Part shown: positions 1 through 31,728 of the stretch, in pieces | Layout: each line of letters opens with the position of its first letter | Numbering within the stretch: position 1 is the first letter of the stretch | Origin: Candidatus Nanohalobium constans | GTDB lineage: Archaea > Nanohalarchaeota > Nanosalinia > Nanosalinales > Nanosalinaceae | DNA length: 32,000 nt | Assembly: GCF_009617975.1 (NCBI RefSeq) | Contig: NZ_CP040089.1 | Location: 540,001-572,000, forward strand | Reading direction: 5' to 3' | Program-made: the position numbers and the translations under genes | Notes under the pieces: generated by a model | The model's input: the letters and a program-made list of their open reading frames with translations, nothing else | Databases searched by the model: none | What the model was told of the DNA's origin: nothing

Positions 1-450
1 TATAGTATCTGCGACATTCTGTGCTGCTTCATGCAGCGGTTTTTCATCTTCGAGTTGTTCTTCGAGAAGGTGTGGTATTACTTCTGTATCTGTTTCGGAC
101 TTGAATTCGTGTCCTCTGTTTTCTAGTTTTTCTTTGAGTTCCTCGTAGTTGTTTATTATTCCGTTGTGGACTACTGCGATGTCTCCTGTACAGTCTCTGT
201 GTGGGTGTGCGTTTGTGTCGTTTACTCCACCGTGTGTGGCCCATCTTGTGTGTCCTACTCCGGATGTGCCGTCTTTTTTCTCTGGTGATACATCGTCGAT
301 TGTTCCTTCTCCTTTTTCTACTTTAACTGTCGGGTTTCCTGCTGTGGCGATACCTGCTGAGTCGTAGCCACGGTATTCAAGTTTCTTCAGTCCTCTGTAT
401 ACTATCTCGGACGCTTTTCTGTCTCCATTGTATCCGACAATTCCGCACAT
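1..450 (-). CDS. glmS: Glutamine--fructose-6-phosphate aminotransferase, N-terminal part (gene runs off the left edge)
   Basis: Own translation of the minus strand from ATG at 450-448: [35 protein letters not shown]...[21 protein letters not shown]...[13 protein letters not shown]. Cys nucleophile directly after Met plus class-II amidotransferase motifs. Frame stays open to position 1. Absent from the ORF track because no stop lies inside the window. Confidence 0.9.
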
Positions 451-589
451 AACAATCATCTATGAGGAGTCCAATCTGTTTAAAAACCTGAAGTAGTATA
501 GAAAACTGGTGAAAAAAGTTTTTGACTGCTACCTGTTTTCCTGACACGGAGCCCTTCACAGCAGTTCTCAGCGAGACATTCCAAAGGAA

Positions 590-597
590 TTTATAAA
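590..597 (+). promoter_or_regulatory. TATA-like box (TTTATAAA) upstream of the wHTH operon; implies a leaderless or near-leaderless mRNA
   Basis: TTTATAAA lies 22-29 nt upstream of ATG 619, the spacing expected between an archaeal TATA box and the transcription start. A mirror TTTTTAAA on the minus strand around 478-486 could serve glmS. Confidence 0.4.
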
Positions 598-618
598 TCC
601 AGTCAAAAATATTTGACA

Positions 619-1536
619 ATGGTTGATTTTGTCCGAGACGAAAACCTGATAGAAGCTGGAGAGCTGACGGAGAAAGAGCTCGAAGCACTTAACTCAGAGA
701 TCAGGGTTGAAGTACTCCGGAACCTCAGCGAGAAACCTTCTTATCCTTCAGCGCTTTCAGACAGCTTCGACTGCAGTAAACAGAAGATGTACTACCACTT
801 CGAGAAACTGGAAGACGCAGGTCTGATAGAGGTTGAAAGAAAAGAGGAGAAATCCGGGGGAGAAGCAACATACTACAGGCCAACACAGAAAGGATTCGTA
901 CTGGACCTCGGCGGAAAAGGAGAAAGTTTCCCCATGCCAGAACACAGTGAAGAAGTATCCAGCTTCTTGAAACCATTAATCAAAGACTCAGAGCTGAATG
1001 GTTCTATCGTAGTTGGCTCAGCAGAGCAGCACGGACCAGACCAGGTACAGGCACTGGACGGACATCTAGCCGGAGAGATAGCGTTCAAACTTGGAAACTA
1101 CTCCAGGACAGAAAACCCGGTTGTCAAGCTTGATACAGAGGTAGTAGGGGAAGAGGACTGGGAGGAGAACATGTTGATACTGGGAGGCGTGCTGACGAAT
1201 GTGGTTGCCAAAGAGTTCAACGAAAGCTTTCCTGCCTTCTTCCCAAGCGAGGAATTTCCTTACAGAAAGCTGGAGACTCCTGAGGACAGCTACAGTGATG
1301 GAGGGATCGGTGTGATTGCTAAGACATCCAATCCTGAGGACAGGGAGAAGAAGATATTTCTGGTAGCTGGAGTGCAGAATAAAGGGACTAAAGCCGCTGT
1401 CAAGGCGTTCCAGGATCTTGAAGAAGTTGTTGAAGACTATTCAGCAGGCCAGTTCTACGCCGTGGTCAGAGGATTGGATTTAAACAGCGACGGCGAGATA
1501 GATAGTTACAAGGTGATCGAAACCAGTGAACAGTGA
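619..1536 (+). CDS. Winged-helix (ArsR-like) DNA-binding protein with uncharacterised C-terminal domain
   Basis: ORF 613-1536 (TTG at 613; first ATG at 619). The N-terminus (IRVEVLRNLSEKPSYPSALSDSFDCSKQKMYYHFEKLEDAGLIEVERKEE...YYRPT) has the ArsR/wHTH pattern. The C-terminal ~200 aa has no motif I can name. Confidence 0.7.
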   Translation: MVDFVRDENLIEAGELTEKELEALNSEIRVEVLRNLSEKPSYPSALSDSFDCSKQKMYYHFEKLEDAGLIEVERKEEKSGGEATYYRPTQKGFVLDLGGKGESFPMPEHSEEVSSFLKPLIKDSELNGSIVVGSAEQHGPDQVQALDGHLAGEIAFKLGNYSRTENPVVKLDTEVVGEEDWEENMLILGGVLTNVVAKEFNESFPAFFPSEEFPYRKLETPEDSYSDGGIGVIAKTSNPEDREKKIFLVAGVQNKGTKAAVKAFQDLEEVVEDYSAGQFYAVVRGLDLNSDGEIDSYKVIETSEQ

Positions 1537-1547
1537 GGCAGATAGAA

Positions 1548-2756
1548 ATGGGTAGAGACTGGAAGGTATTTCAGACCGATGTCCTTGACCTTCTCAGACA
1601 GTACGAAGGATACATGGACTTCTTCGAGAGAGTGGGCAGTCTCAGCGACAACTCACGACCAGACGCATTCGCCAGGATCACCAGGAAAGACAAGAAAGAA
1701 ATATGGATATTGGATGCCAAGAACAAAAGCGAGATTGGGGAAGAAGACGAGAAAAGGATGAAGAAATACATCGAACAGATCAAATCCAACCCTGTCGATG
1801 TCGGATTAGAACTATCAGAACTTACCGATCACGAAGTTAAGGGCATCTTTATCACTCCAGGAAAAGCTGAGAGCCAGTACGAAACAGTAGAGTTCAAAGG
1901 ACTCCACCAGTTCCTGCAAAAAGAACTAATCTATACTGACACTGATAAAATCGTCCGAGATGTCGCGAAGATGGTGAAGAGAAAGAAACTGAGCCAGAGC
2001 CAAGCCCGACTCCTACATCAGTCTCTTGGACCTTTCAGGAAAAGACTGGAAAAGGTAAGGGAAGATCTTTCCCGGCTAGAATCAGACTTCGTCGGACTGA
2101 AGCTCTATACACCACCATTCGATAATCTCAGCTTTTCTCCACCTGCGGATGCCGTCATGAAGCATTCGGAGCGGAATCAGGTTTTCCTTATTGATATTCC
2201 TTACTCGCCTGAGGAGGCGGAAAAGGCAGAGGAACGAGCGGAAGATGTAGAGAAGTATATTGACGGAGAAGGATACTATGTATCACTGCACAACTTCGAT
2301 GTAGACTCAAGGTTTGCATGCCCACCTAAACAGTTCAAGGAACGAGTTCAGGAGGTTCTTGGAGTTGTATCTCCTGAGACGATGGCAGAAGTATTTATGC
2401 CAAAATTTGAGGTAGAGAAGAAGTACAGAGACGGTTTTATCGAATTGGTTTCCGACGAACTTGGTTTCAAGATGCGTGTTTCATCCGAAGACGATGTTAA
2501 CCACAGGGTTGAAGCATTTTTGAATGACGATGCCGTTTCCCGAATCAAGGATAGGAGTGTGAACAGTCGGAAAGAGTTCGGAGAGTTCCATGGCGACAAA
2601 TGGGTTCAAGATTTAAGTGTTGAAGAAGATTTGACAGTCAATTACGGTAATTCTGAGAGTTTGGAAAGCTACAAGCAGAGTGTGAAAAATATTTTCCACG
2701 CAGCCGTAAACCCTGTCTACAGCAAGAAAATCGCCCGTAAAACACAACAAAAATGA
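1548..2756 (+). CDS. Restriction-endonuclease-fold (PD-(D/E)xK, Mrr-cat-like) N-terminal domain protein with long unknown C-terminal region
   Basis: ORF 1533-2756. GTG 1533 overlaps the upstream stop as GTGA; ATG 1548 has GAGG 9 nt upstream. N-terminus: WKVFQTDVLDLLRQYEGY...RPDAFARI...KEIWILDAKNK, i.e. D...(D/E)xK with the spacing of Mrr-type nuclease cores. The remaining ~280 aa is not recognisable. Confidence 0.6.
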   Translation: MGRDWKVFQTDVLDLLRQYEGYMDFFERVGSLSDNSRPDAFARITRKDKKEIWILDAKNKSEIGEEDEKRMKKYIEQIKSNPVDVGLELSELTDHEVKGIFITPGKAESQYETVEFKGLHQFLQKELIYTDTDKIVRDVAKMVKRKKLSQSQARLLHQSLGPFRKRLEKVREDLSRLESDFVGLKLYTPPFDNLSFSPPADAVMKHSERNQVFLIDIPYSPEEAEKAEERAEDVEKYIDGEGYYVSLHNFDVDSRFACPPKQFKERVQEVLGVVSPETMAEVFMPKFEVEKKYRDGFIELVSDELGFKMRVSSEDDVNHRVEAFLNDDAVSRIKDRSVNSRKEFGEFHGDKWVQDLSVEEDLTVNYGNSESLESYKQSVKNIFHAAVNPVYSKKIARKTQQK

Positions 2757-3178
2757 ACAAAGAAGACTACATCGAGAAAAACCAGCTGGAAAATGTGATC
2801 CAGGAAATAGAGAAGACAGTAGACTCTATAATCGTAGAAGGCTGGGACGACAAGAAGATGATCCAGAAACTTGGCTTCGAAGGCAAAATCTTTATGTCGG
2901 CCGAAAAAACAGTTGAAGATCTGGTTGAAGATGTCTCAAGAGGATCGGAGAGAACAGCTGTTCTCACAGACTTCGATTCTCACGGAGAGGAAGCGTCCAA
3001 GGAAATTTCTAGGGAACTGGATAAAGAGATTGATGTAATAAGATCTGCAAGGCAGAAATTCGGGGCACAACTTACATCCACAGACAGGAGAGCTGTGGAG
3101 GATATCAGACCGCTTTTCGATGATAAAGAGGAGAAGTTTGTGGAGGCAGCGATGGACCAGCTCTTCTTTAACCCGTGA
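2753..3178 (+). CDS. Small Toprim-domain protein (RNase M5 / small primase-like family)
   Basis: ATG overlaps the upstream stop (ATGA at 2753-2756). Toprim signature: conserved Glu in IIVEGWDDKKMIQKLG and the DxD block AVLTDFDSHGEE. The 141-aa size fits the stand-alone Toprim proteins of archaea. Confidence 0.75.
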   Translation: MNKEDYIEKNQLENVIQEIEKTVDSIIVEGWDDKKMIQKLGFEGKIFMSAEKTVEDLVEDVSRGSERTAVLTDFDSHGEEASKEISRELDKEIDVIRSARQKFGAQLTSTDRRAVEDIRPLFDDKEEKFVEAAMDQLFFNP

Positions 3179-3211
3179 ATTCTAAGAGATTAACTGTTCT
3201 GAGTAATTTAT

Positions 3212-3862
3212 ATGCTGAAGGATGATGAGCTGGAGGAGTTGAAGTCTAGGTTAAATCAGGTTTTCTCAGGTTACAGCGAACTTGCAGGCGGTAAGAACTA
3301 CCGATACCAACACCTGACAACTACTCATAAAATGGTCTTGAACTTGGAAGAAGAACTGGATGTGGATGTTGACCAGAAAATTCTGGAGATCGCGGCTTTG
3401 TACCATGACATCGGCAGATCCAAGGATATTGAGGAAGGTGAGATGGATCCATTTGAAGGACATGAGGGTCACGATGAGAGAGGTGCAAAGATCGTCGGAG
3501 AATATGTCTCAGAGTTTGTGACCAAAGATCAACTTGAGAAAATCAGGGAAATTATCCGGAACCACCACTCAGAAGCAGAACATGTAGAAGGAGAGATAGT
3601 TCAAGACGCCGATAAACTATCAAACTTTGGTGTCAGCAATCTCTGGCGGCAGATACATTACGCAGCACAACACGAGAGAAGCTTCAAAGAAAGTCTGGAC
3701 TACTTCTGGAACACTGCAGTTGACGAATACCAGGAACAGATAGTAGAAATGCACTTTGAGCATACAAAGAAAGTTGCAGAGGAAAGACTGGAGAAGCAGA
3801 AACAAGTAATTCAGCGAATGGAGAAAGAGGTTGACGGCGAAGATATTTTAGAAATCAGTTAA
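3212..3862 (+). CDS. HD-domain metal-dependent phosphohydrolase
   Basis: LEIAALYHDIGR (H...HD), NHHSE and QDADKLSN motifs in the order typical of the HD superfamily. Confidence 0.8.
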   Translation: MLKDDELEELKSRLNQVFSGYSELAGGKNYRYQHLTTTHKMVLNLEEELDVDVDQKILEIAALYHDIGRSKDIEEGEMDPFEGHEGHDERGAKIVGEYVSEFVTKDQLEKIREIIRNHHSEAEHVEGEIVQDADKLSNFGVSNLWRQIHYAAQHERSFKESLDYFWNTAVDEYQEQIVEMHFEHTKKVAEERLEKQKQVIQRMEKEVDGEDILEIS

Positions 3863-4597
3863 AGACTGATTTATATCAGGATTGTATCCTTGAGATTTTA
3901 GCAGGGCTTCATAGTGTTCAGCTTTCTCTTCAGGATATACTGAGACTACATTCTCTAAGTCAATTTCATCTGTAAGAGTATCTGAGTGGTTTCCATACCC
4001 GAGTCGAGCTTCATGTACTTCTATTTCGAAGACAACACCTTCACCATCAAGATAGAATCTCATCTCCCTATGATCTTCATTTGTATAAATTACAGGAGTT
4101 ACACCAATTTTTTCCCGTAATCTTGAATTGATATTGGGCTTGATCTTTCCATCCCTTATTATTTCTTCAGCTTCCTGCGGTGTTTTAGCGGCATGGTAAA
4201 CTGTCACAAAGTTATCTGGATCAGTGTAGAGAGATATGTTATAATCACCAAACTCTTCAACCAGCTCAGTCCTGTATTCTGCGTGTATTCTGGGAAAAGG
4301 CATTATTCTTCTAAGAACACTCCTCTTTTTTTCTCCTAGGACTCCAGGAATAGTTCTTCTCTCTAGATCGCGTTTTGCCTTATACGCAAATCCTTTTTCC
4401 AGGCTAATATGATTTCTTTCACCATCAATTTCAATGCCTTTTCCATCAGGAAAGTTCTCAGTTAGCTTGACCAGTCTCGGATCCTCAAGCTGCTGAAATA
4501 CCTTATCAGCAGGCAAAGTCTCTCCATTCAAAAGATCCTGTATTACTTCTCCCTCCATAGACTCAACAAGCTCAAAAAACTTTGAATAAATATCCAA
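3848..4597 (-). CDS. Hypothetical protein with C-terminal PIP-box-like tail (NQSLTDF*)
   Basis: ORF 3848-4597 (TTG at 4597; alternative ATG at 4558). No family recognised. The last residues ...PDINQSLTDF share the pentapeptide SLTDF with the gene immediately upstream. Its 3' end overlaps the HD gene by 15 nt (convergent). Confidence 0.6.
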   Translation of the reverse strand: MDIYSKFFELVESMEGEVIQDLLNGETLPADKVFQQLEDPRLVKLTENFPDGKGIEIDGERNHISLEKGFAYKAKRDLERRTIPGVLGEKKRSVLRRIMPFPRIHAEYRTELVEEFGDYNISLYTDPDNFVTVYHAAKTPQEAEEIIRDGKIKPNINSRLREKIGVTPVIYTNEDHREMRFYLDGEGVVFEIEVHEARLGYGNHSDTLTDEIDLENVVSVYPEEKAEHYEALLKSQGYNPDINQSLTDF

Positions 4598-4610
4598 TTT
4601 TTTAACCGAG

Positions 4611-5573
4611 CTAGAAATCAGTAAGAGAGCTCTGATTCTGTTTCAATGCTCGTGCGTTGAATCCTTTCTCTCTTTTGAGGTATGATGCGAATTCTTCATC
4701 AAATCCGTGCTGTACATACACTTTTTCCGGGTCAACTTCTTCTACTAGCTTGACTAGACCGTCAAAGTCGCAGTGATCGGATAACTGAAATGTTTCGTCG
4801 TAGCCGCCGCGATACTTGAATGAGTCTGTGGTCGCCCAGCCAGAGAATCCTGCTTTAACGGCTCCAGTCTTGTCTACAAGTTTTTCTACCCAGTCACTTT
4901 GGGAAGTGTTTGAAGGTGCTACAAGTATTCCGTTGTCTTCCATCAGCTCCTTGTTTTCGCCGTATGGAATGGCTCTGAACTCTTTTTCCGCGGATTCCTC
5001 TACGACATCGTTCATGTTTTTGACGGAGCCATGTGCCAGTATCGGTCTTTCAGTTGCCTGTTCTGCTAGTTTCTGAATCTTCTGAGCTTTTCCCAACGAA
5101 TAGCCAAATAGAATCAGCGGAGAACCTTCATTCTGGATAAAGTCTTTGATCCTGTTTTCTATTACTCTCTGCTCTGGGAAGCGATATGCTGGTATGCCAT
5201 AAGTTGATTCTACTACGAGTATGTCAGCTGAAACTGGATTGAAACCGTCTAAGTACACTCTGTCTCTTAGGGAGACATCTCCTGTGTATAGAACGCTTTT
5301 TTCTCCTTTGATTTTTGCGGCTGAGCTCCCTAGTATGTGACCGGAGTTGTATAATTCAACTCTGTCATGTTCTGTTCTCTTGACTTCTTTACCGGCTCTG
5401 GCACCTGCAAGCTTAGCAGTTAGTTCTGAACAAACTACTTCTGAGTCGCTGAGGTGCATGTGGTCGAAGTGGGCGTGACTGACAAGGTTGATGTCGCCCT
5501 GACTGTTTCTGGAGTCGGCAACTACCTTCTCTTCTCCTTGTATATGGATGCCGTCTTTCTCCGTTATCTTCAC
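4611..5573 (-). CDS. Beta-CASP metallo-beta-lactamase-fold nuclease with C-terminal PIP-box-like tail (QSSLTDF*)
   Basis: GTG start at 5573. Motifs: LVSHAHFDHMH (HxHxDH), LVVESTYG, FSGWA, and LSDHCDFDGL...VYVQHG (beta-CASP motifs B/C). The 320-aa size resembles the short ligase-associated/SNM1-like exonucleases rather than CPSF73 or RNase J. Confidence 0.8.
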   Translation of the reverse strand: MKITEKDGIHIQGEEKVVADSRNSQGDINLVSHAHFDHMHLSDSEVVCSELTAKLAGARAGKEVKRTEHDRVELYNSGHILGSSAAKIKGEKSVLYTGDVSLRDRVYLDGFNPVSADILVVESTYGIPAYRFPEQRVIENRIKDFIQNEGSPLILFGYSLGKAQKIQKLAEQATERPILAHGSVKNMNDVVEESAEKEFRAIPYGENKELMEDNGILVAPSNTSQSDWVEKLVDKTGAVKAGFSGWATTDSFKYRGGYDETFQLSDHCDFDGLVKLVEEVDPEKVYVQHGFDEEFASYLKREKGFNARALKQNQSSLTDF

Positions 5574-5655
5574 ACCTATGCAGAGACGGCAGATTTTAAA
5601 TCGGTAACCTCAGTTCAGAGGGTTTTGAAATAACTAATTCCCTGAGTCGGTTATC

Positions 5656-6864
5656 ATGAGTGATTCAAAAGTTATTCGAACGCTTTTCCTGACGATTATT
5701 GCCGAGGTGATCAGCTTTGGGGTGCTGATTCCGATTGCACCGCTGTTGTTTACTGAGCCTGGCTCGACTTTCTATATGCTTTCAGAGGGAGTATCAATCC
5801 AGATCGGTTATGTTTTGCTGGGTCTTCTTATCGGGCTTTATCCGTTAGGTCAGTTCTTCGCTACTCCGATCCTGGGTGAGATCAGTGATATTTATGGCAG
5901 GAAAAAAGTGATTCAGGTATCCGTCTTTGGCACAGTTATCTCTTCAATAGTCTTTGGACTGGGCATAATGTTCAACAGTATCGCTGTATTGTTCGCTTCC
6001 AGAGTTCTCAATGGTTTGACAGGAGGATTGGTCTCAGTTTCACAGGCAACGATCGCAGACATAACAGAGGACGACAAAAAGTCGAAAAACTTTGGAATAA
6101 TTGGCATGGCATTCGGAATAGGATTTATCTTCGGACCTTTCCTCGGAGGATTCCTCTCATCCGACTTTCTACATTTTTTCTCAGTTACAACACCTTTCTG
6201 GTTTGCAGCAGCCGTCTCAACCATCTCCCTACTTTATGTGACGAAATCGCTGCATGAAACAAGTCCAATGGAAGACAAGAAGATCAACTGGAAGAAACCT
6301 TTCACTCAGTTAAAGAAAGGATGGGGGCTGCCAGGCTTGAAGAAACTGTTTACTGCCAACTTCTTCTACTTCTCCGGGTTCGCCTTCTTCACAACATTCA
6401 TTCCCGTCTACCTGGTCAAAAACTTTGGATTCAGCCAGTTCCAGACCGGCAACTTCTTCCTATACATTGGTATACTGTTGATAATCGGTCAGGGATACAT
6501 AGTGCCGAAACTGTTTTCCAGGTTCGAAGAAGAGAATGTTATGCCTTTTACACTGTTCCTGACAGGACTCTTCATCTTCCTCCAGCCAGTACCACAGAGC
6601 ATCGCTGTTTTCCTGGCAGTTGTAACGCTTTTCCAGTTTAACAACTCTGTAACACAGATCAGTCTGAACACGCTTGTCTCAAACAAGGCAGCCGACAAAG
6701 ACCAGGGATTAGCGCTTGGAACCAATCAAAGCGTTCGTGCACTCGGAAACGCAGTACCCAGCATGCTATCAGGGATCGCCGCTGCCATCGCAACACCTGC
6801 ATTCCCGCTTACACTTGCAGGTCTGACAGTAATGGCAACAGCGGCAGGTTATTGGAAGCTCTGA
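5656..6864 (+). CDS. MFS transporter (drug:H+ antiporter-like)
   Basis: About 12 predicted hydrophobic segments. MFS motif A between TM2 and TM3: GEISDIYGRKKV. Confidence 0.85.
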   Translation: MSDSKVIRTLFLTIIAEVISFGVLIPIAPLLFTEPGSTFYMLSEGVSIQIGYVLLGLLIGLYPLGQFFATPILGEISDIYGRKKVIQVSVFGTVISSIVFGLGIMFNSIAVLFASRVLNGLTGGLVSVSQATIADITEDDKKSKNFGIIGMAFGIGFIFGPFLGGFLSSDFLHFFSVTTPFWFAAAVSTISLLYVTKSLHETSPMEDKKINWKKPFTQLKKGWGLPGLKKLFTANFFYFSGFAFFTTFIPVYLVKNFGFSQFQTGNFFLYIGILLIIGQGYIVPKLFSRFEEENVMPFTLFLTGLFIFLQPVPQSIAVFLAVVTLFQFNNSVTQISLNTLVSNKAADKDQGLALGTNQSVRALGNAVPSMLSGIAAAIATPAFPLTLAGLTVMATAAGYWKL

Positions 6865-6872
6865 CAAAGTGT

Positions 6873-6880
6873 AATATAAA
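6873..6880 (+). promoter_or_regulatory. TATA-like box (AATATAAA) for tRNA-Trp
   Basis: AT-rich octamer centred about 30 nt upstream of the first tRNA nucleotide (6907). Confidence 0.4.
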
Positions 6881-6906
6881 ACTGGTCGACCAAGTGGTAG
6901 AGTAAA

Positions 6907-7055
6907 GGGGTCGTAGCTCAATCTGGGAGAGCGACCGCCTCCAGAGAACCTTTACTGGAGGGATGAGAACCTTTTCGCGAGAAAGGGTTTGATGATTAAA
7001 GCCTCGCTTATTAGGAGTTAGCGGTAGGTTGCATGTTCAAATCATGCCGGCCCCA
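6907..7055 (+). tRNA. tRNA-Trp (anticodon CCA) with a 75-nt intron at 37/38
   Basis: Folded by hand. Acceptor GGGGUCG/CGGCCCC (one G-U); D arm GCUC/GAGC; anticodon stem ACCGC/GCGGU; loop CU-CCA-G; T arm GCAUG-UUCAAAU-CAUGC; discriminator A7055. BHB motif: central helix CUCC (6939-6942)/GGAG (7014-7017), flanked by 3-nt bulges AGA (6943-6945) and UUA (7018-7020). Oligo-T tracts follow at 7068-7073 and 7080-7086. Confidence 0.9.
6945..7019 (+). ncRNA. tRNA-Trp intron carrying C'/D'-box-like elements (possible cis-acting 2'-O-methylation guide for C34)
   Basis: UGAUGA (box C/C' consensus) at 6990-6995 and AUGA (a degenerate D' variant) at 6963-6966, separated by the hairpin AACCUUU-UCGCGAG-AAAGGGUU. 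The 7 nt CUGGAGG (6955-6961) just 5' of AUGA are complementary to exon CCUCCAG (6938-6944). G6958, the 5th nt upstream of AUGA, pairs with C6941 = C34. No canonical terminal box C / CUGA box D pair was found. Confidence 0.5.
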
Positions 7056-7111
7056 AGTTTTCCTGCGTTTTTTGGGAAGTTTTTTATTGAGAGAAGTTGT
7101 TAGTAGGGTTT

Positions 7112-7603
7112 ATGGATTTTCATAATTCGGTTGCGGTTTACAAGGTTTTCAGGAATATTTTTTTGGATGATGAGAGTAATAGTGTTCGGCTTGGAGTGGA
7201 GCATGGTTTTGATGATGAGCAGGCTGAGCAAATTATTTTAGGTGCTGTGGATGAGGGATACTTGGATGTGGTTAAGGATTCTGATCCGCGAGAATACACC
7301 GTTGATTTTGATAAGCTAGCTGAGCAGTGGAGTGTTCTCTGGGATGAGGAGTTGGATGAGGCTCCGGTTACTCCGCAGAATTTTGAGAGCTTTTTGAAAA
7401 GCTATATTAAGTCGTATTTCAGACATGAGAAGCATACTAGTCTGCGTGAGATGTTGGTTGAGGAGTTTTACCTGGGTTTGACTCGTTCGGAGAATCATGG
7501 TAAGCTTTCTAAGGATTTCCGGGAGCTTGAGGAAGAGCTTGGAGATTTTGATGGTAAGAGATCGCCTAGTGAGCACGTGGAGCACGGGTTGAGACATCGT
7601 TAG
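7112..7603 (+). CDS. Hypothetical acidic protein
   Basis: ORF 7097-7603 (TTG); first ATG at 7112 (MDFHNSV...). No recognisable motif. Confidence 0.55.
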   Translation: MDFHNSVAVYKVFRNIFLDDESNSVRLGVEHGFDDEQAEQIILGAVDEGYLDVVKDSDPREYTVDFDKLAEQWSVLWDEELDEAPVTPQNFESFLKSYIKSYFRHEKHTSLREMLVEEFYLGLTRSENHGKLSKDFRELEEELGDFDGKRSPSEHVEHGLRHR

Positions 7604-7689
7604 ACCCAAAAAGATTTGTTTATTTGCTCTGAGTCGGCTACGTATTCATCTAAGAAAGGATGGAAGGGAAGAGTTTTTTCCTGTAATTT

Positions 7690-8457
7690 CTAAATTTTTT
7701 GGTCTTCCATTTCTATTCTTGGGTCGGCTAGGTTTTCAAGAAAGAAGTTTAATTCTAATTCGGATTTTTTAACTGCGTTTTTTCTTTTACGTGTTTTTTC
7801 AAGCATTTTCCGGTAGTTTTTCTGGGTGTCGGCTACTTTTCCAAAGGTTAGTGCTGATACCAGTTTCTGTTTTTCTTGGCTGGGGTTGTCTTCGTATTTG
7901 TCTAAGGCTTTTAGAGGTCCTATTGGAGTTTCTGGTTTGGATTTTCTCAGGCGGTAGAAGACTTTTTTCCATATAGGCAGATCTGAGTAAATGAAGGATT
8001 CTATATTTTCCTCTTCGAACTGAAGGAATTCTCCGTATCTCCTGTGCATTTTTGTTTTGTATTTTTTGTCTGTAATTGGTTTGAAGAACTCCTTGGAATA
8101 CTGTTTTTTGGTGCAGAAGATTCTAGCCTTTATTTCTGCTTTTTCAATCATTTCTGATGTGTTAGATGTGTCTCCCAGCATTTTTGTGAATGATTCAGCA
8201 ATTGTCTTTCCAGGGTTTCTGTTGACGTAGCAGTTGTAGCCTATAGAGTTTAATTTGGAAATCAATTTGTTCAATTCTTCTTCATCGGGTAGGAAAACCT
8301 CTACGTCTGTTGCAGGTTTCTCGCCCATCGCTGTTAGAAGTAACCGGGCTAGATCACCGTTGTTCAGATAGTCGTTTATTTCGTTTTTCAGGTTTCCTAA
8401 ACTTGTTTCAGTTTTTTGTTCAGAAATATGTTTCTCCAGTTTCATGTTTGGCGTCAT
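7690..8457 (-). CDS. Hypothetical lysine-rich (basic) protein
   Basis: 255-aa ORF with an ATG start. K/R-rich, unlike the acidic neighbours. Only a weak nucleotidyltransferase-like stretch (AMGEKPATDVEVFLPDEEE), which I do not consider diagnostic. Confidence 0.55.
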   Translation of the reverse strand: MTPNMKLEKHISEQKTETSLGNLKNEINDYLNNGDLARLLLTAMGEKPATDVEVFLPDEEELNKLISKLNSIGYNCYVNRNPGKTIAESFTKMLGDTSNTSEMIEKAEIKARIFCTKKQYSKEFFKPITDKKYKTKMHRRYGEFLQFEEENIESFIYSDLPIWKKVFYRLRKSKPETPIGPLKALDKYEDNPSQEKQKLVSALTFGKVADTQKNYRKMLEKTRKRKNAVKKSELELNFFLENLADPRIEMEDQKI

Positions 8458-12723: not shown

Positions 12724-13530
12724 ATGGAGTTTTCGCTGACAAGAGTTGGAGACGAAAATATGCATTTGTATGATTCAGAGATTGAGTCACGGATTCAGCT
12801 TGTGTTTGTTCCCGGTGTTTTCTCAGCAGAGGCTTGGAAGTACCAGGTAAATTATTTTTCTGAGGATTACAGGACAGTAACTTATCAGCCTACAGTCAGT
12901 AACCGAGGTTTTGAAGGTCATAGAAAGGCTTTGAAACAGATAATTAACCAGGATGAAATGGATAATATTGTTTTGATAGGTGCTAACTACAGCAATTCTC
13001 TGGTACAGGGTTTTGAGGCACATGAGAGTGTTTCAGCGACTGTTGTTGGCGGGGCTAAAAAGAAGTTGAAGAAAGGTATTCCTAAGGAAGTTTATCAGGG
13101 TTTGACCTCAGGAGTTTTCCCTGTGAAGCTTTTCAAGAAGCTTTTCATGAAATCTATGCGTTATAAGGAGGTTAGGAGTTTCTGTAAGGATGTCAGCTTC
13201 CTTGATTTCAACGATTTTAAGTCATTTCAGGAAAGGTTCGGCGTTAGGAAGCCTGAGAAGGAGTGTATGATTGTACATGCTACTAGAGATATTTTCTCCG
13301 ATCGAGGTTATGCTAAGAATTTGATGTCTAGTGCTTCGGTTTCTGAGGTTGAATCAGGTGTTTTCAGTTTTTATGAGAAGCCTCAGGAGTTTAACAAGAT
13401 TTTGAATGATTTCCTGATCAAGATTGAGAGGAAAGCGATTAAGGAGAAAATTGAGGAAGAAAAGGAGAATAATAAGACGCTTGTAGATTTTGAAAACGGT
13501 AAAAGATTGGCTAAGGTGAATCAAGAATGA
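12724..13530 (+). CDS. Alpha/beta-hydrolase-fold protein with degenerate catalytic residues
   Basis: QLVFVPGVFSAEAWKYQVNYF...YRTVTY and CMIVHATRDIF...YEKPQEFNKILNDFL follow alpha/beta-hydrolase topology. The nucleophile elbow reads IGANYSN instead of GxSxG, and the expected His position reads SGVFSFYE. Confidence 0.6.
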   Translation: MEFSLTRVGDENMHLYDSEIESRIQLVFVPGVFSAEAWKYQVNYFSEDYRTVTYQPTVSNRGFEGHRKALKQIINQDEMDNIVLIGANYSNSLVQGFEAHESVSATVVGGAKKKLKKGIPKEVYQGLTSGVFPVKLFKKLFMKSMRYKEVRSFCKDVSFLDFNDFKSFQERFGVRKPEKECMIVHATRDIFSDRGYAKNLMSSASVSEVESGVFSFYEKPQEFNKILNDFLIKIERKAIKEKIEEEKENNKTLVDFENGKRLAKVNQE

Positions 13531-14039
13531 TTGCAGGAGTTATACTCAGCAACAGCTTGGATAAAGACTCGAAAATCGCTTTTCTAGGAGATGAACTGGA
13601 AACCTTTTCAGTTGAAACCAACCAAGAAATAGTTGACCTGGTAGAGGAGAAACAACCCGAGATTATAGCTTTCGATGTAGGTACAGAGCAAGGACCTAAA
13701 GAGTTTACTAAGGCCGAGCAGGAGCTACAGGACGAGGGATACATCTTTACACCGAACAGCCATCAAGAAAGGAAGGTTGAAAGGTTGCAGAGCCTGGAAA
13801 AACACTTGAAACACCAGTTAGATTATATTCCAGAGATAATCAGATTTGAACCACAGATAACCGCTGAAGAACTGATGCTGGATGGAGAAGACGCTCTAAA
13901 ATCGATCGGAATCGAGGGAGACATCAGCGGAGCTAAGGAGTTTGACGCTGTTCTAGGCGCTGTGACAGCCAGGTTCTACAGCCAAGACCAGTTTGAGGAA
14001 ATGGGAGTTGTGGTTCCTGAAAACCTGGACAACTCTTAA
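13527..14039 (+). CDS. Hypothetical acidic protein
   Basis: ATGA overlap with the upstream stop. The N-terminus (MIAGVIL...KIAFLGDELETF...EIVDLVEEKQPEIIAFDVG) loosely resembles the first strands and helix of an RNase H-like fold but lacks the first Asp. Confidence 0.5.
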   Translation: MIAGVILSNSLDKDSKIAFLGDELETFSVETNQEIVDLVEEKQPEIIAFDVGTEQGPKEFTKAEQELQDEGYIFTPNSHQERKVERLQSLEKHLKHQLDYIPEIIRFEPQITAEELMLDGEDALKSIGIEGDISGAKEFDAVLGAVTARFYSQDQFEEMGVVVPENLDNS

Positions 14040-14081
14040 AAGATTTTTAGTATGAATAGGTAAATACAAGGCGTTAAAATT

Positions 14082-14423
14082 ATGGGAATGGAGAAATTTT
14101 ACTCAACGGTCAGGCAGCAGTTCGGACTTGACAAAGAACAGATGAAACAAGAAGTCAAGGACGAAGTCACAGCAGAGCTGCGAGAAGAACTAGGAGAAGA
14201 AATCAGCTACATCGAAGCACAACTCAAAGAATACGAACAACTAGTAGCAGAAGTCAACCACCTACTCGCCACAATGAGAAAAGACCGAATCCAGAAAAGA
14301 AGCGAAGGCAAGCAGATCAAAATGGACGAAATGGACGAAGACCTCCAACCACTGAAATCCAAACTGAAGAAACTGGAGAAATCCATGCAAAAACGCCTAG
14401 ACGAAGGCACAGCATTTAGCTAG
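14082..14423 (+). CDS. Hypothetical coiled-coil protein
   Basis: 113-aa charged heptad-like sequence with no motif. Confidence 0.5.
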   Translation: MGMEKFYSTVRQQFGLDKEQMKQEVKDEVTAELREELGEEISYIEAQLKEYEQLVAEVNHLLATMRKDRIQKRSEGKQIKMDEMDEDLQPLKSKLKKLEKSMQKRLDEGTAFS

Positions 14424-14431
14424 ATTTTTCT

Positions 14432-14779
14432 ATGAATTGGTCTGAAAAAGTACTTTCAGGTGCTTTAGTCTCAGCAGGCACAGCTATAGGTTATTCAATT
14501 TTTCAACAGAAACTAAATGAAGCAAAAGATGAATATTTGGAAGCTACTCCTGCAGAAAGACAGGAACTAGACGCTGAAGCCAAGGAGTTTATGATGAGTC
14601 ATGAAGTGGACCAAATAGACTCTGTGTACGATTTAGCCACCTCTATTTATAGTGTTGGTTTAGAGGACTTAGATGATCTATTAAAGTATGAGGGAGTCAT
14701 AAAAGACCAAAAAATTACAAGCAACAGCAGAGAAAGATCAATGAGAGATTTAGAAGAAAAAATAGATAACTTATTCTAA
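14432..14779 (+). CDS. Hypothetical protein with N-terminal hydrophobic anchor
   Basis: 115 aa. The N-terminus (VLSGALVSAGTAIGYSIF) is hydrophobic and the rest is acidic. Its 3' end overlaps ftsY by 9 nt (convergent). Confidence 0.5.
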   Translation: MNWSEKVLSGALVSAGTAIGYSIFQQKLNEAKDEYLEATPAERQELDAEAKEFMMSHEVDQIDSVYDLATSIYSVGLEDLDDLLKYEGVIKDQKITSNSRERSMRDLEEKIDNLF

Positions 14780-17611: not shown

Positions 17612-18164
17612 ATTCTCTGACTCTTTCCTGTATTCTTTGCTGGAAGATTGGTTTTCTGTCTTTCAGTTCTAGCATCCAGTAAGCCCACATAGCCAGTACT
17701 AGGAATGTCAGGCTCCAACTCCAGAGCACATCATGTATTAGGTCAAATGAGACTATGCCTTTTTCAGCTAGTACTACCGTGGTGTAGACTCTGATTATGT
17801 TAGCGATTATTATTACTGCTGTTCCTTGCAGCAGGTAGTTTAGGTGTTCTAGCGTTCTTTTTGTGGATGCAAATGTCAGTGCGTAGAATGCTGCTATGCT
17901 TTTCCATCCTAGGCAGTCCTGTGTTATGATGTATTCTGCTTTACTGGTTAGAAGGCTTATACCATTGACAGTTGTCTGGGTTCCTGTAGAGTTCAGCATC
18001 GCACCTATTATTTCAGCTAGAAAGCTTTGAAGGAACTCTGTGTTTGGATGTATGTACAGGATTCCCTGAAATATGGCTCCGACGACCAGTAGTTTTGCCA
18101 TGAACAGGAGTGTTTGAAAAAGCTTCTGCTGAGTCTCAGTAAATTGTTCAGAGTCAAATCTCAT
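17598..18164 (-). CDS. Exosortase/archaeosortase-family membrane protein
   Basis: Polytopic, with the family's Cys / Arg / His signature in order: ITQDCLGWKS ... IIANIIRVYT ... LIHDVLW. Its ATG overlaps the DUF460 stop (ATGA at 18161-18164). Confidence 0.65.
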   Translation of the reverse strand: MRFDSEQFTETQQKLFQTLLFMAKLLVVGAIFQGILYIHPNTEFLQSFLAEIIGAMLNSTGTQTTVNGISLLTSKAEYIITQDCLGWKSIAAFYALTFASTKRTLEHLNYLLQGTAVIIIANIIRVYTTVVLAEKGIVSFDLIHDVLWSWSLTFLVLAMWAYWMLELKDRKPIFQQRIQERVREFNRE

Positions 18165-19189
18165 CTGGAATCCTTGTAATCTTCAATTATGGATTCAAAG
18201 TTTTTAGGTTCTGGGAAGGATTCTACCAGGTAGAAATCGCTTAGTTCAACGCCCTCTACCCTGTCTACATGGTATATGTTGCAGCCGCGGTTCTCCAAGA
18301 CCTCTATCAGATCTTTATTTCTGGTTACTGCTTTTTCAGGTACTTCTTCAACCGACTTATCGACTACACGGACGAGGTCACGGTCCTCGTGGAAGATTTT
18401 CCGGACTGCTTTCCTGTACTGTTTTTCTCTTATCCTGTAATCGCTTATTTCCTCTTCAAGCTCTTCAATTTCCTGATTCTTTCTTTTGATCTCTGCCTCC
18501 CGCTTCTGAACCTCTTCCTCTTTCCTAACCTCTTTCCGCTCCTCATCTCTCAGCCGGCTTAACTTAGCCCTAAGGCTTTCCTTCTCACTTCTCTCTTCAC
18601 CAAGTTCAGATTTCAGCCGTTGAACCTGTTCCTCAAGGTTTTCAACCTTTTTCTCCAAACGCTTTTTCTCAGGATCCACGTCATCACCAGATCCAGAAGC
18701 TTCTCCAGCTTCACCATACTCATCAGGTTCCTCTGGCGTCGCATCCTCAGATTTTCTTACAGGCTCGCCTTCGAAGACCTTCTCAGCTACCTCTATCTTA
18801 TCCCGGTTTAACTGGCTTTTCAACTTGTTAATCTTCCGTATCTCTTTATGAAGCTGTTTTTGGGCATGTACCGCAGAGGCCAGTGCATCTAGCTCGTGAC
18901 TGTTGGCTCCTTTCCCAAGTCTTTTCTTCCGATCCTGGGAAAGGTCTTCTTCCGGCTCAAAAGTTTTTGCACCAAGTGATGAAGAAATCTTGTCCACTTT
19001 ACTCGGTGTCTTGCCTTTGTCGGATGCTACTACGACCGGTTTGCCAACTTTGATGAGTCTCTGGATTATTTCGCGCGGCGGAAAGTTTTTACCTGATTCC
19101 AGAAGTTCTACCTCTCCGTCTAGTGTTACTGCTGCGACTGCGGATGTGCTTCCAGGGTCTACTCCGACTATAAGCGGTTTTTTAGCCAT
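18161..19189 (-). CDS. DUF460 / COG2433 protein (RuvC/YqgF-like RNase H fold plus central coiled coil)
   Basis: LIVGVDPGSTSAVAAVTLDGEVELLES...GKPVVVASDKGKTPSKVDKISSSLGAKTFEPEEDL...NSHELDALASAVHA matches the conserved DUF460 N-terminal domain as I recall it. A Glu/Lys/Arg-rich coiled coil follows. Its ATG overlaps the Hef stop (TAATG at 19187-19191). Confidence 0.8.
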   Translation of the reverse strand: MAKKPLIVGVDPGSTSAVAAVTLDGEVELLESGKNFPPREIIQRLIKVGKPVVVASDKGKTPSKVDKISSSLGAKTFEPEEDLSQDRKKRLGKGANSHELDALASAVHAQKQLHKEIRKINKLKSQLNRDKIEVAEKVFEGEPVRKSEDATPEEPDEYGEAGEASGSGDDVDPEKKRLEKKVENLEEQVQRLKSELGEERSEKESLRAKLSRLRDEERKEVRKEEEVQKREAEIKRKNQEIEELEEEISDYRIREKQYRKAVRKIFHEDRDLVRVVDKSVEEVPEKAVTRNKDLIEVLENRGCNIYHVDRVEGVELSDFYLVESFPEPKNFESIIEDYKDSR

Positions 19190-21366: not shown

Positions 21367-21403
21367 GGATAAGTGTTGTGTAGGGAATTTTCTTAACGCT
21401 TCC

Positions 21404-21919: not shown

Positions 21920-21932
21920 TTCTTAATCACTT

Positions 21933-23195: not shown

Positions 23196-23230
23196 CAACT
23201 AGAGTTTGGGCGAGCTCGGGTTTAAAGATT

Positions 23231-31106: not shown

Positions 31107-31115
31107 TTTAGAGTT

Positions 31116-31508: not shown

Positions 31509-31529
31509 AGAGGAGAGTAGAAAAATAGT

Positions 31530-31641
31530 CAGGCAACGTCCTGATTGTCCCGCCGAAAGGCAGTACCGATCAGATCGATGGAAGACTTTACTACCGTGTT
31601 CGGAATGGGTACGGGTGTTGCCCTTCCTCTTTGGTCGCCTG
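31530..31641 (-). rRNA. 5S rRNA (ends within a few nt)
   Basis: The minus strand reads CAGGCGACCAAAGAGGAAGGGCAACACCCGUACCCAUUCCGAACACGGUAGUAAAGUCUUCCAUCGAUCUGAUCGGUACUGCCUUUCGGCGGGACAAUCAGGACGUUGCCUG. It holds the universal CCCAUUCCGAACACGG block, and helix I closes as CAGGCGAC/GUUGCCUG. Confidence 0.85.
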
Positions 31642-31728
31642 TAACCAAACATATACACCCTACTCTTATAAACCCTAAAGGAGAGGGAGGGCAGAAGACT
31701 TTTTATCAAAAGTCTCCAAAAAACCAAT

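What the first reader, a model, noticed from the sequence alone, without database searches (positions are those of the whole stretch)
590..3862. Translationally coupled wHTH / PD-(D/E)xK / Toprim / HD four-gene cassette matching no named system I know
Four same-strand genes sit behind one TATA-like box. They are a wHTH protein with an unknown C-terminal domain, a ~400-aa protein with a restriction-endonuclease-type core (PDAF...ILDAKNK) plus ~280 unrecognisable residues, a minimal Toprim protein (VEGWDD, LTDFDSHGEE) and an HD phosphohydrolase (YHDIGR, DADKL). Stop/start overlaps (GTGA at 1533-1536, ATGA at 2753-2756) argue for co-expression and fixed stoichiometry. A DNA-binding component combined with three different nucleic-acid-cleaving or phosphohydrolase folds is the logic of prokaryotic immunity or repair modules (Toprim nucleases in OLD/Gabija-type systems, HD effectors). 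I cannot map this combination onto a described system. The small Toprim protein alone is widespread in archaea, so the novelty would lie in the linkage and in the 400-aa nuclease-fold protein.
Basis: partly seen in the sequence, partly recalled or inferred. Interest (0 to 1): 0.65.

Follow-up and report, generated by a model that had tools for sequence, protein, structure and literature searches.

The report
Nanohaloarchaeal regulator–nuclease operon, not a system
The four genes are real and probably co-expressed, but they are a patchwork of chromosomal housekeeping genes rather than a new four-part immune system: an ancient archaeal DNA-binding regulator tied to the sugar-synthesis gene glmS, a nuclease family almost confined to nanohaloarchaea, a small Toprim protein and an HD hydrolase.

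Summary
All four ORFs and their domain calls hold, and so do the promoter and the tight gene spacing. The cassette is not conserved as a unit. I compared 37 species-level nanohaloarchaeal loci.

- **Constant core:** only glmS(-)/g1/g2 is always present. The g1 stop and g2 start overlap by 4 nt in 19 of 36 cases.
- **g3 (Toprim):** it follows g2 in 29 of 33 assessable loci. An opposite-strand pcm gene separates them in 11.
- **g4 (HD):** it sits here only in the Nanohalobium clade and one other locus.
- **g1:** it belongs to an unnamed ~313-aa family (wHTH plus S-layer-like domain) found across Archaea. In several phyla its neighbour is a divergent glmS, not a nuclease.
- **g2:** it is a narrow family, with 33 representatives among 1.84 billion. 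It has an N-terminal PD-(D/E)xK domain with a conserved (D/E)…DxK motif and about 280 residues with no significant match.

PADLOC finds no defence-system match. The genes are single-locus, vertically inherited and embedded among housekeeping genes, which argues against immunity.

My best reading is a composite housekeeping operon: a glmS-linked regulator translationally coupled to a lineage-specific endonuclease. The nuclease's substrate is unknown.

The parts
1..450 (-). 5' part of glmS (glutamine-fructose-6-phosphate aminotransferase, N-terminal MCGIVGY...). It is transcribed divergently from g1.
   Evidence: Translation. The neighbour is conserved in 34 of 37 related loci. The full-length neighbour in other lineages carries GATase plus SIS domains.
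451..618 (.). glmS-g1 spacer holding the two divergent promoters. The g1 TATA box TTTATAAAT is at 590-598. Degenerate copies of the clade-wide ACCGGT palindrome lie just after the TATA box (ATCCAGTC) and near 503-510 (AACTGGTG).
   Evidence: Sequence. In related loci ACCGGT is 8.5-fold enriched in this spacer, typically 24 nt before the g1 ATG, with further copies at -44 and -100 to -133. All nine exact ACCGGT copies in the window lie downstream of 11 kb, none in this spacer, and by my reading of the ORF list they fall inside ORFs rather than in spacers.
619..1536 (+). g1: a 305-aa protein with an ArsR/Phr-type winged helix-turn-helix followed by an S-layer-outer-domain-like (flavodoxin-like) domain. 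The protein ends in a DxDGDGxID loop. It belongs to a pan-archaeal family linked to glmS.
   Evidence: HTH_20 E=4e-12 and S_layer_C E=4.5e-11. PDB 1uly E=1.5e-13. AF2 model pLDDT 88; Foldseek hits PH1932 and BcsB. Pan-archaeal alignment A3.
1548..2756 (+). g2: a 402-aa protein (alternative GTG start at 1533 overlapping the g1 stop). It has an N-terminal PD-(D/E)xK nuclease domain (residues ~1-128), a long helix, and two alpha/beta domains with no significant match.
   Evidence: Invariant E27, P38-D39 and D56-A57-K58. D56-A-K58 is invariant and position 39 is D or E in remote homologues. AF2 pLDDT 83. Foldseek hits FokI, N.BspD6I and Hjc. The family has only 33 representatives.
2753..3178 (+). 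g3: a 141-aa stand-alone Toprim protein with E29 (VEGWDD) and D73-x-D75 (TDFDSHGEE). Its start overlaps the g2 stop (ATGA).
   Evidence: NCBIfam PRK04017-type models at E about 1e-8, below cut-off. PDB 1t6t E=3.9e-5.
3212..3862 (+). g4: a 216-aa HD/HDIG-domain phosphohydrolase. It is found at this locus only in the Nanohalobium clade and one other locus.
   Evidence: PF01966 at 48.5 bits, above the gathering score. HDIG match. PDB 3djb, 3b57 and 5dqv. Distribution.
4611..5573 (-). g6: a 320-aa metallo-beta-lactamase/beta-CASP nuclease. It is a conserved convergent neighbour that closes the syntenic block.
   Evidence: TIGR04122-like at 184 bits, below its cut-off of 325, plus RMMBL. PDB CPSF73 and INTS11. 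Present in 29 related loci.

Best explanation
The locus is a composite housekeeping operon on a nanohaloarchaeal chromosome, not a four-component machine.

**(1) g1 is the local orthologue of an ancient, unnamed archaeal regulator.** It combines a winged helix with an S-layer-like ligand or oligomerisation domain. Its persistent partner is the divergently transcribed glmS gene. I infer that it binds the shared spacer and controls its own operon and glmS. In this clade the candidate sites are ACCGGT palindromes lying between its own TATA box and the transcription start, and near the glmS promoter.

**(2) g2 is a lineage-specific endonuclease.** It is found almost only in nanohaloarchaea. It is placed directly behind g1 and translationally coupled to it, so the two proteins are made together and may act as a complex. 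It is a metal-dependent PD-(D/E)xK enzyme with an intact active site. I infer that it does a housekeeping nucleic-acid job such as repair, recombination or turnover.

**(3) g3 is a small stand-alone Toprim protein of the kind common in archaea (RNase M5-like).** It was probably next to g2 ancestrally, but it does not depend on co-transcription with g2.

**(4) g4 is a stand-alone HD hydrolase that joined the transcription unit only in the Nanohalobium clade.**

**Shown:** anatomy, domain assignments, conservation and synteny.
**Inferred:** co-transcription, operator binding, nuclease activity, substrate, and any g1-g2 complex.
For: **Synteny**
- glmS(-)/g1/g2 is present in every related locus that reaches that far.
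- The surrounding block holds unrelated housekeeping genes in the same order: UPF0173-like MBL, pcm, pterin dehydratase, beta-CASP nuclease and superoxide dismutase.
- The window itself carries SRP54, FtsY, prefoldin, Hef, SRP RNA and 5S rRNA.

**g1-g2 coupling**
- A 4-nt overlap is available in 19 of 36 cases; all but one of the rest (L011, ambiguous) have every candidate start within 30 nt.

**g3 and g4**
- g3 is downstream in 29 of 33 assessable loci: directly adjacent in 16, and pcm(-) is inserted in 11.
- g4 is at the locus in 4 of those 29.
- On a rough g2 tree, direct g2-g3 adjacency appears in the deepest branches.

**g1 family**
- 2028 hits across Nitrososphaerales, Methylarchaceae, Bathyarchaeia and others, with the same invariant residues.
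- A divergent glmS lies next to it in L042, L048/49, L052, L050 and L053, and nearby in Bathyarchaeia.
- glmM and a glmU-like gene are nearby in L048 and L052; glmM alone is nearby in L053.
- The downstream slot is occupied by unrelated genes elsewhere.

**g2**
- The catalytic motif is conserved and the fold is supported.
- The family is narrow.

**Other**
- There is no defence-system match and no significant viral structural match: none at E<=0.001, best E=3.7e-3.
- The HD protein's closest solved relatives are stand-alone HD hydrolases.
Against: - No expression, binding or activity data exist, so co-transcription and regulation are inferred from sequence alone.
- The window's own spacer has only degenerate ACCGGT copies, and the motif is not seen outside this clade.
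- Conserved translational coupling of g1 and g2 across deep divergence (about 40-50% identity) hints at a tighter functional tie than simply sharing a promoter.
- Three nucleic-acid enzymes (g2, g3, g6) staying clustered could reflect a shared pathway rather than inherited gene order.
- The function of g2 remains unassigned. About 280 of its 402 residues match nothing significant.
Confidence: 0.55

Rival explanations
1. g1, g2 and g3 form one dedicated DNA repair or recombination machine specific to nanohaloarchaea. The wHTH protein would target or load the PD-(D/E)xK endonuclease on DNA. The Toprim protein, and the nearby beta-CASP nuclease, would process the ends.
For: - g1-g2 translational coupling is conserved across the clade.
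- g2-g3 adjacency is probably ancestral, and ATGA coupling is present in this window.
- A beta-CASP nuclease related to 'ligase-associated DNA damage response exonuclease' is a constant convergent neighbour.
- The g2 active site is intact.
Against: - g1 predates g2 by far and is paired with glmS rather than nucleases in other phyla.
- An opposite-strand pcm gene splits g2 from g3 in 11 loci, and g3 is absent from 4 loci.
- Remote g2 homologues occur without g1 or g3.
- Unrelated genes in the same block are conserved just as well.
- The g6 match is below its family cut-off, and no ligase or helicase is adjacent.
Confidence: 0.22
2. One reading: a novel anti-virus or anti-plasmid immunity module. 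A DNA-binding sensor would be combined with PD-(D/E)xK, Toprim and HD effectors.
For: - The domain combination recalls defence effectors.
- PADLOC gives only weak sub-domain matches: the Csa3 HTH at E=6e-8, and the Cas10 and Cas3 HD domains at E=4e-6 to 2e-3.
- One remote g2 homologue sits beside MazE/PIN and DUF2283 toxin-antitoxin-like genes.
Against: - No defence-system model matches any full protein. g2 has no PADLOC or PHROG hit.
- The genes are at one fixed chromosomal position in all 37 sampled species, among housekeeping genes. There are no mobile-element or defence-island neighbours.
- The N-terminal half of g2 is highly conserved: 68 invariant columns among 24 sequences that are 45-79% identical to the window's protein.
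- HD is absent from most loci.
- g1 is a pan-archaeal protein linked to glmS.
- g3 has no ATPase partner of the OLD or Gabija type.
Confidence: 0.06
3. g2 is part of hexosamine-pathway control. It would be a nuclease made with the glmS-linked regulator that cleaves glmS (or related) mRNA. This would be analogous in logic to the bacterial glmS ribozyme and to RapZ/RNase E control.
For: - Only the positional logic supports this: g2 is translationally coupled to a regulator whose conserved neighbour is glmS.
- That bacterial glmS is controlled by RNA cleavage is established knowledge, cited from memory.
Against: - There is no evidence that g2 acts on RNA.
- Most lineages with the glmS/g1 pair lack g2.
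- Most characterised PD-(D/E)xK enzymes act on DNA (general knowledge, cited from memory).
Confidence: 0.05

Closest known systems
PD-(D/E)xK nucleases with a minimal core: FokI cleavage domain, N.BspD6I nickase, archaeal Holliday-junction resolvase Hjc
   Same: The N-terminal ~128 residues of g2 are modelled with the alpha-beta-beta-beta-alpha-beta core. They carry E27, P38-D39 and D56-A57-K58, the classical metal-binding and catalytic pattern.
   Different: - There is no significant sequence or structure match: best Foldseek E=0.06, and Pfam PDDEXK_7 is below its cut-off.
- g2 is about three times the size of Hjc. It has a long helix and two extra domains found in no solved structure at a significant level.
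- No methyltransferase partner is present, so it is not a restriction-modification enzyme.
Small stand-alone Toprim proteins (NCBIfam PRK04017 group; PDB 1t6t from Aquifex; bacterial RNase M5 as the characterised relative)
   Same: g3 has the same size and the same E...DxD Toprim motifs. It aligns over residues 11-89 with 1t6t at E=3.9e-5.
   Different: - It scores far below the equivalog cut-offs (about 35 bits against 120 or more), so it is a divergent member.
- The function of the archaeal group is untested. RNase M5 activity is only an analogy, cited from memory.
ArsR/Phr-type archaeal winged-helix regulators (PH1932, PDB 1uly/2cwe; Pyrococcus Phr, 2p4w)
   Same: The g1 N-terminal domain matches them in sequence and in the model.
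   Different: g1 carries a ~190-residue S-layer-outer-domain-like or BcsB-flavodoxin-like domain with invariant His and Asp residues, ending in a DxDGDGxID loop, instead of their dimerisation domain. It belongs to an unnamed pan-archaeal family linked to glmS.
Toprim- or HD-based defence systems (OLD/Gabija GajA, Cas3/Cas10 HD)
   Same: They share only catalytic domain types.
   Different: - No ABC-ATPase is fused to or next to the Toprim domain.
- There is no helicase and there are no cas genes.
- PADLOC finds nothing beyond weak sub-domain similarity.
- The locus is core and syntenic rather than patchy.
Stand-alone HD hydrolases (PDB 3djb, 3b57, 5dqv/5ihy)
   Same: g4 aligns nearly full-length (about 126 to 183 residues) at E=8e-6 to 6e-5 and has the H...HD...D motif.
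   Different: Identity is low and the substrate is unknown. I recall 5dqv as Bacillus YpgQ, a nucleotide pyrophosphohydrolase, but I did not verify this here.

Membership tests
PD-(D/E)xK nuclease superfamily (g2, N-terminal domain) | Conserved acidic residue on beta-2 and a (D/E)xK on beta-3, with a supporting acidic residue on helix 1 | tested here: met
   E27, P38-D39 and D56-A57-K58 are invariant in 24 sequences. D56-A-K58 is invariant and position 39 is D or E in remote homologues P0257, P0264 and P0267.
PD-(D/E)xK nuclease superfamily (g2, N-terminal domain) | Alpha-beta-beta-beta-alpha-beta core fold matching known members | tested here: inconclusive
   The order of secondary-structure elements in the AF2 model fits. 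Weak Foldseek matches include PD-(D/E)xK nucleases among the top ranks (FokI probability 0.97, N.BspD6I, Hjc), but no match reaches E<=0.001 because the whole multidomain model was searched.
PD-(D/E)xK nuclease superfamily (g2, N-terminal domain) | Match to a curated family model above its threshold | tested here: not met
   PDDEXK_7 scores 15.4 bits against a cut-off of 22.1. It is matched weakly by 15 of 24 members. There is no NCBIfam, PADLOC or PHROG hit.
Toprim domain / small archaeal Toprim proteins (g3) | Conserved Glu in motif 1 and DxD in motif 2 | tested here: met
   VEGWDD (E29) and TDFDSHGEE (D73, D75) appear in the translation. They align to the same motifs of 1t6t.
Toprim domain / small archaeal Toprim proteins (g3) | Score above the curated family cut-off | tested here: not met
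   Pfam Toprim scores 18.6 bits against 23.1. PRK04017 equivalogs score about 35 bits against 120-193.
HD phosphohydrolase superfamily (g4) | H...HD...D metal-binding motif and a Pfam HD match above the gathering score | tested here: met
   PF01966 scores 48.5 bits against 22. HDIG scores 35.7 against 27.6. The motifs YHDIGR and DADKL are present.
ArsR-type wHTH plus S_layer_C architecture (g1) | Both domains above their Pfam gathering scores | tested here: met
   HTH_20 scores 46.3 against 27. S_layer_C scores 43.1 against 23.9. The same pair is precomputed for most homologues.
Known anti-phage defence systems (PADLOC models, including Gabija, OLD, Cas3/Cas10, Cap4) | Full-length match of the component proteins to system models, and presence of the obligatory partners (ATPase, helicase, cyclase or cas genes) | tested here: not met
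   There are only sub-domain hits for the HTH and HD domains, and none for g2. No ATPase, helicase or cas gene lies in 1-8000.
Defence island or mobile immunity module (generic) | Patchy, strain-variable distribution with variable genomic context | tested here: not met
   The locus has the same position and flanks in 37 species-level genomes. Within-species variability could not be tested.
Single operon (co-transcription of g1-g4) | One promoter, no internal terminators, one transcript | not testable with these tools
   The sequence is compatible: TATA at 590-598, spacings of -4/+11, -4 and +33 nt, and no + strand terminator-like site inside the cassette. The scan is bacterial-type and no RNA data are available.

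The most novel reading that the evidence does not exclude
g1 and g2 form a wHTH-guided PD-(D/E)xK endonuclease complex that arose once in the nanohaloarchaeal lineage by capturing the promoter and the protein of an ancient glmS regulator. This complex, possibly with the Toprim protein, would perform a symbiont-specific DNA transaction that no described archaeal system covers. Examples are processing of acquired host DNA or a replacement for a missing resolvase or repair nuclease. The two C-terminal domains of g2 would be new folds or a degenerate second nuclease domain.
Probability: 0.15. Interest if true: 0.65.

Novelty: new member of a known kind. Interest (0 to 1): 0.33.

Why it matters
**For the original claim.** The result is deflationary. 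An apparent wHTH plus three-nuclease "system" dissolves into inherited gene order on a small, streamlined chromosome. This shows why tight spacing in one genome is not evidence of a functional module.

**Two leads remain.**
- g2 is found in every nanohaloarchaeal species locus the scan returned, and nowhere outside the lineage except for three remote relatives. It has an intact nuclease active site and about 280 unassigned residues. Such lineage-defining proteins are candidates for the biology that sets these obligate symbionts apart.
- The g1 family is a highly conserved, unnamed archaeal regulator found next to glmS in several phyla. If it controls hexosamine (UDP-GlcNAc) synthesis, it would fill a gap. 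Neither of my two targeted literature searches on archaeal glmS regulation found a described archaeal glmS regulator.

Tried and rejected
- **Sequence searches of g2.** Searches against PDB, NCBIfam, PADLOC and PHROGs gave nothing significant.
- **Foldseek of the whole g2 model.**
  - Against PDB and BFVD I found only weak generic nuclease hits.
  - The C-terminal domains gave noise-level matches: type III secretion chaperones, frataxin, and Cap4 SAVED at probability <=0.2.
- **Internal duplication in g2.** hhalign of the N-terminal against the middle domain aligned the beta2-beta3 hairpins (D56 with D216). The result was E=0.06-0.08 and probability below 1%, so I rejected it as unsupported.
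- **Proteins occupying the g2 slot behind g1 elsewhere.** I tested whether the 266-aa (L048) and 405-aa (L050) proteins are diverged g2. They are not: hhalign probability is below 1%.
- **ACCGGT operator outside the clade.** It is not present there.
- **Literature.** Searches on the nanohaloarchaeal nuclease, small archaeal Toprim proteins (UPF0292, COG1658), COG1777 and archaeal glmS regulators returned nothing useful.
- **g2 as a replacement for a missing Hjc.** I considered this but could not test it.
- **Restriction-modification.** I rejected this because there is no methyltransferase and the gene is core.
- **OLD/Gabija.** I rejected this because there is no ATPase or helicase.

Full report
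**What is there**

The window is a piece of a nanohaloarchaeal chromosome. The proteins are acidic, with pI 4.5-5.5. The closest relatives are Candidatus Nanohalobium MAGs. The window also carries SRP54, FtsY, prefoldin, Hef, SRP RNA and 5S rRNA.

The source contig is 973,463 bp. From memory, this equals the genome size of Ca. Nanohalobium constans LC1Nh, but I did not verify that.

| Gene | Coordinates | Length |
|---|---|---|
| g1 | 619-1536 | 305 aa |
| g2 | 1548-2756 (or from GTG 1533) | 402 aa |
| g3 | 2753-3178 | 141 aa |
| g4 | 3212-3862 | 216 aa |

- Upstream, on the other strand, lies the start of glmS (1-450, MCGIVGY...).
- A TATA box, TTTATAAAT, sits at 590-598, about 25 nt before the g1 ATG. 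The mRNA is therefore probably leaderless.
- g2 and g3 overlap as ATGA at 2753-2756.
- The g1 stop (TGA, 1534-1536) is overlapped by GTG 1533. It is followed 11 nt later by ATG 1548, which has a GAGG motif in front of it.
- g3 and g4 are 33 nt apart.
- The bacterial-type scan found no + strand terminator-like site inside the cassette.

**Domain assignments**

*g1.*
- It matches HTH_20 (E=4e-12) and S_layer_C (E=4.5e-11), both above the Pfam cut-offs.
- The profile matches PH1932 (PDB 1uly, E=1.5e-13). The C-terminal part weakly matches an S-layer protein chain (9fsa, E=0.005).
- The AF2 model has pLDDT 88.
- It superposes on PH1932 and Phr at the N-terminus and on the flavodoxin-like domain of BcsB at the C-terminus.

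*g2.*
- No curated family matches above threshold. PDDEXK_7 is a weak hit in 15 of 24 family members.
- E27, P38-D39 and D56-A57-K58 are invariant in the family.
- D56-A-K58 remains invariant, and position 39 is D or E, in three remote non-halophilic homologues.
- The AF2 model (pLDDT 83) has the alpha-beta-beta-beta-alpha-beta order of elements.
- Its Foldseek matches are weak, none reaching E<=0.001. The top ranks include FokI's cleavage domain (probability 0.97), N.BspD6I, R2 endonuclease and Hjc.
- Residues from about 130 to 402 match nothing significant in PDB or BFVD.

*g3.*
- It has the Toprim E...DxD motifs and aligns with the small Aquifex Toprim protein 1t6t (E=3.9e-5).
- It also aligns with the PRK04017 group, but far below those models' cut-offs.

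*g4.*
- It is a clear HD/HDIG protein.
- Its closest solved relatives are stand-alone HD hydrolases: 3djb, 3b57 and 5dqv.

**Is the cassette a unit?**

I fetched 37 species-representative loci that encode a g2 relative. All are nanohaloarchaeal apart from one evidently mis-binned contig. I then mapped the window's genes onto them.

- **g1 and g2.** They are adjacent and co-directional in every locus that extends far enough.
  - A 4-nt overlap is available in 19 of 36 cases.
  - In all but one of the rest, every candidate start lies within 30 nt of the g1 stop; L011 is ambiguous.
- **glmS.** It is the divergent upstream neighbour in 34 of 37 loci.
- **g3.** It lies downstream of g2 in 29 of 33 assessable loci.
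  - It is directly adjacent in 16.
  - In 11 a protein-L-isoaspartate methyltransferase gene on the opposite strand lies between them.
  - In two, other DNA intervenes.
  - In four loci g3 is not within 4-6 kb.
- **g4 (HD).** It is at the locus in only four related genomes, three of them close Nanohalobium relatives.
- **Wider block.** The same gene order extends to unrelated housekeeping genes. These are a UPF0173-like MBL hydrolase, a small secreted protein, pcm, pterin-4a-carbinolamine dehydratase, a beta-CASP nuclease and superoxide dismutase.

Much of the "linkage" is therefore inherited gene order in a small genome. A rough neighbour-joining tree of g2 suggests that direct g2-g3 adjacency is ancestral. 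The pcm insertion and the loss of g3 from the locus appear to be derived.

**The decisive context: g1 is old, g2 is new**

*g2 is a narrow family.*
- An exhaustive profile search of 1.84 billion representative proteins found only 33 members. Twelve are full-length, the others are fragments, and three are remote relatives.
- The remote relatives sit alone. One lies beside MazE/PIN-type genes, without g1 or g3.

*g1 belongs to a broad family.*
- A slightly more distant homologue (P0232) retrieves 2028 proteins of about 313 aa.
- They come from Nitrososphaerales, Methylarchaceae and Bathyarchaeia. They also come from MAGs labelled Pyrodictiaceae or Aenigmarchaeota, and from other nanohaloarchaeal MAGs.
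- They share the same invariant residues as g1.
- No NCBIfam model names the family.

*glmS is the usual neighbour of g1 in other lineages.*

| Locus | Lineage (where known) | glmS position relative to the g1 homologue |
|---|---|---|
| L042 | — | Directly upstream, divergent |
| L048/49 | — | Directly upstream, divergent |
| L052 | — | Directly upstream, divergent |
| L050 | Methylarchaceae | Directly upstream, divergent |
| L053 | Aenigmarchaeota-labelled MAG | Directly upstream, divergent |
| L044/45/51 | Bathyarchaeia | About 1.2 kb away |
| L046/47 | Nitrososphaerales | Absent |

- In L048 and L052 a phosphoglucosamine-mutase-type gene and a GlmU-like gene are close by. In L053 the mutase-type gene is.
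- The gene behind g1 differs by lineage: an acidic membrane protein, DUF371, a 405-aa unknown protein, or the S13 ribosomal operon. None of these is related to g2.

The wHTH protein's conserved partner is therefore glmS. g2 is a clade-specific gene that came to occupy the slot behind g1.

**Promoter region**

- In the nanohaloarchaeal spacers a BRE/TATA element precedes g1.
- The palindrome ACCGGT is 8.5-fold enriched there. It typically lies 24 nt before the g1 ATG, between the TATA box and the start site. Further copies lie at -44 and near the glmS side.
- All nine exact copies in the window lie downstream of 11 kb. By my reading of the ORF list they fall inside ORFs rather than in spacers, so ACCGGT does not look like a generic promoter element here.
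- It is absent from the spacers of other phyla.
- The window's own spacer has only degenerate copies.
- I take this as a candidate g1 operator. That is an inference only.

**How it most likely works**

*Shown:*
- the gene anatomy;
- the domain identities;
- the intact nuclease motif;
- the conserved g1-g2 coupling;
- the variable attachment of g3 and g4;
- the cross-phylum glmS-g1 pair;
- the absence of any defence-system match.

*Inferred:*
- g1 binds the shared spacer and tunes glmS and its own operon.
- g2 is made in step with g1 and acts as a metal-dependent endonuclease in a housekeeping role.
- g3 is a small RNase M5-like Toprim enzyme.
- g4 is a stand-alone HD hydrolase, which I take to be a nucleotide-directed phosphohydrolase.
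- In this genome all four ride on one transcript.

I put 0.55 on this composite-operon reading. The other readings are:
- a genuine g1-g2-g3 repair or recombination machine: 0.22;
- the defence reading: 0.06;
- an RNA-level role in glmS control: 0.05.

The remainder is unassigned.

**Comparison with known systems and novelty**

- The locus is not Gabija or OLD, because there is no ATPase or helicase.
- It is not a Cas3 or Cas10 module, and it is not restriction-modification, because there is no methyltransferase.
- g2 is a new, narrow family within the PD-(D/E)xK superfamily.
- g3 and g4 are divergent members of known groups.
- g1 is a member of an unnamed but widespread archaeal family.
- The four-gene "system" as such is not a real unit.
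- Interest is modest at 0.33. It rests on g2 as a lineage-defining nuclease and on the glmS-wHTH pair as a testable candidate regulator.

Noticed in passing
window 619-1536 with 1-450; loci L042, L044/45, L048/49, L050, L051, L052, L053: A ~313-aa protein (wHTH plus S-layer-like domain) is conserved across archaeal phyla at 32-40% identity to g1, with the same invariant residues. In most contexts examined it sits divergently next to glmS, sometimes with glmM and glmU-like genes nearby. No family name or paper was found. It is a candidate conserved regulator of hexosamine synthesis.
   Followed up: partly
window 451-618 and the equivalent spacers of L001-L037: The palindrome ACCGGT is 8.5-fold enriched in the glmS-g1 spacer of nanohaloarchaea. 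It usually lies 24 nt before the g1 ATG, between the TATA box and the start site, with extra copies at -44 and -100 to -133. The window itself has only degenerate copies.
   Followed up: partly
window 3848-4597 (-): A 249-aa ORF has no Pfam, NCBIfam or PHROG match and no homologue in any of the 37 related loci. Its 3' end overlaps the 3' end of the HD gene by 15 nt. It is either a genome-specific orphan gene or a spurious ORF.
   Followed up: partly
window 4611-5573 (-): A 320-aa MBL/beta-CASP nuclease is most similar to the 'ligase-associated DNA damage response exonuclease' model (184 bits, below the cut-off of 325). It is a constant neighbour of the cassette in 29 related loci, yet no ligase or Lhr-type helicase is adjacent.
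   Followed up: partly
window 6907-7055 (+): Rfam calls a tRNA spanning 149 nt (50.7 bits) that ARAGORN does not find. It is probably an intron-containing tRNA gene.
   Followed up: no
window 18161-23198 (-): A run of repair-type genes lies on the minus strand: a DUF460 protein (342 aa), a full-length Hef (helicase + ERCC4 + HhH, 725 aa), a 171-aa unknown protein and a HerA-like ATPase (421 aa). This may be a DNA-repair cluster.
   Followed up: no
window 30324-31508 (+) and 31528-31642 (-): Two adjacent NUDIX hydrolase genes (260 and 130 aa) are followed by a 5S rRNA gene on the opposite strand. No 16S or 23S rRNA was found in the window.
   Followed up: no
window 12724-14779 (+): Four consecutive same-strand ORFs (268, 170, 113 and 115 aa) have no Pfam match. 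The first two overlap by 4 nt.
   Followed up: no
L038/L039 2544-3899 (and L041): Remote, non-halophilic g2 homologues (451 and 425 aa) keep the DAK motif but stand alone. One lies between a DUF2283 gene and a MazE/PIN pair. This is the only hint of a variable or toxin-antitoxin-like context for the family.
   Followed up: partly
L037 (JBDGRJ010000050.1): A contig binned as 'Candidatus Paceibacteria bacterium' carries the nanohaloarchaeal glmS/g1/g2 arrangement. This is probably a binning error in the public MAG.
   Followed up: no
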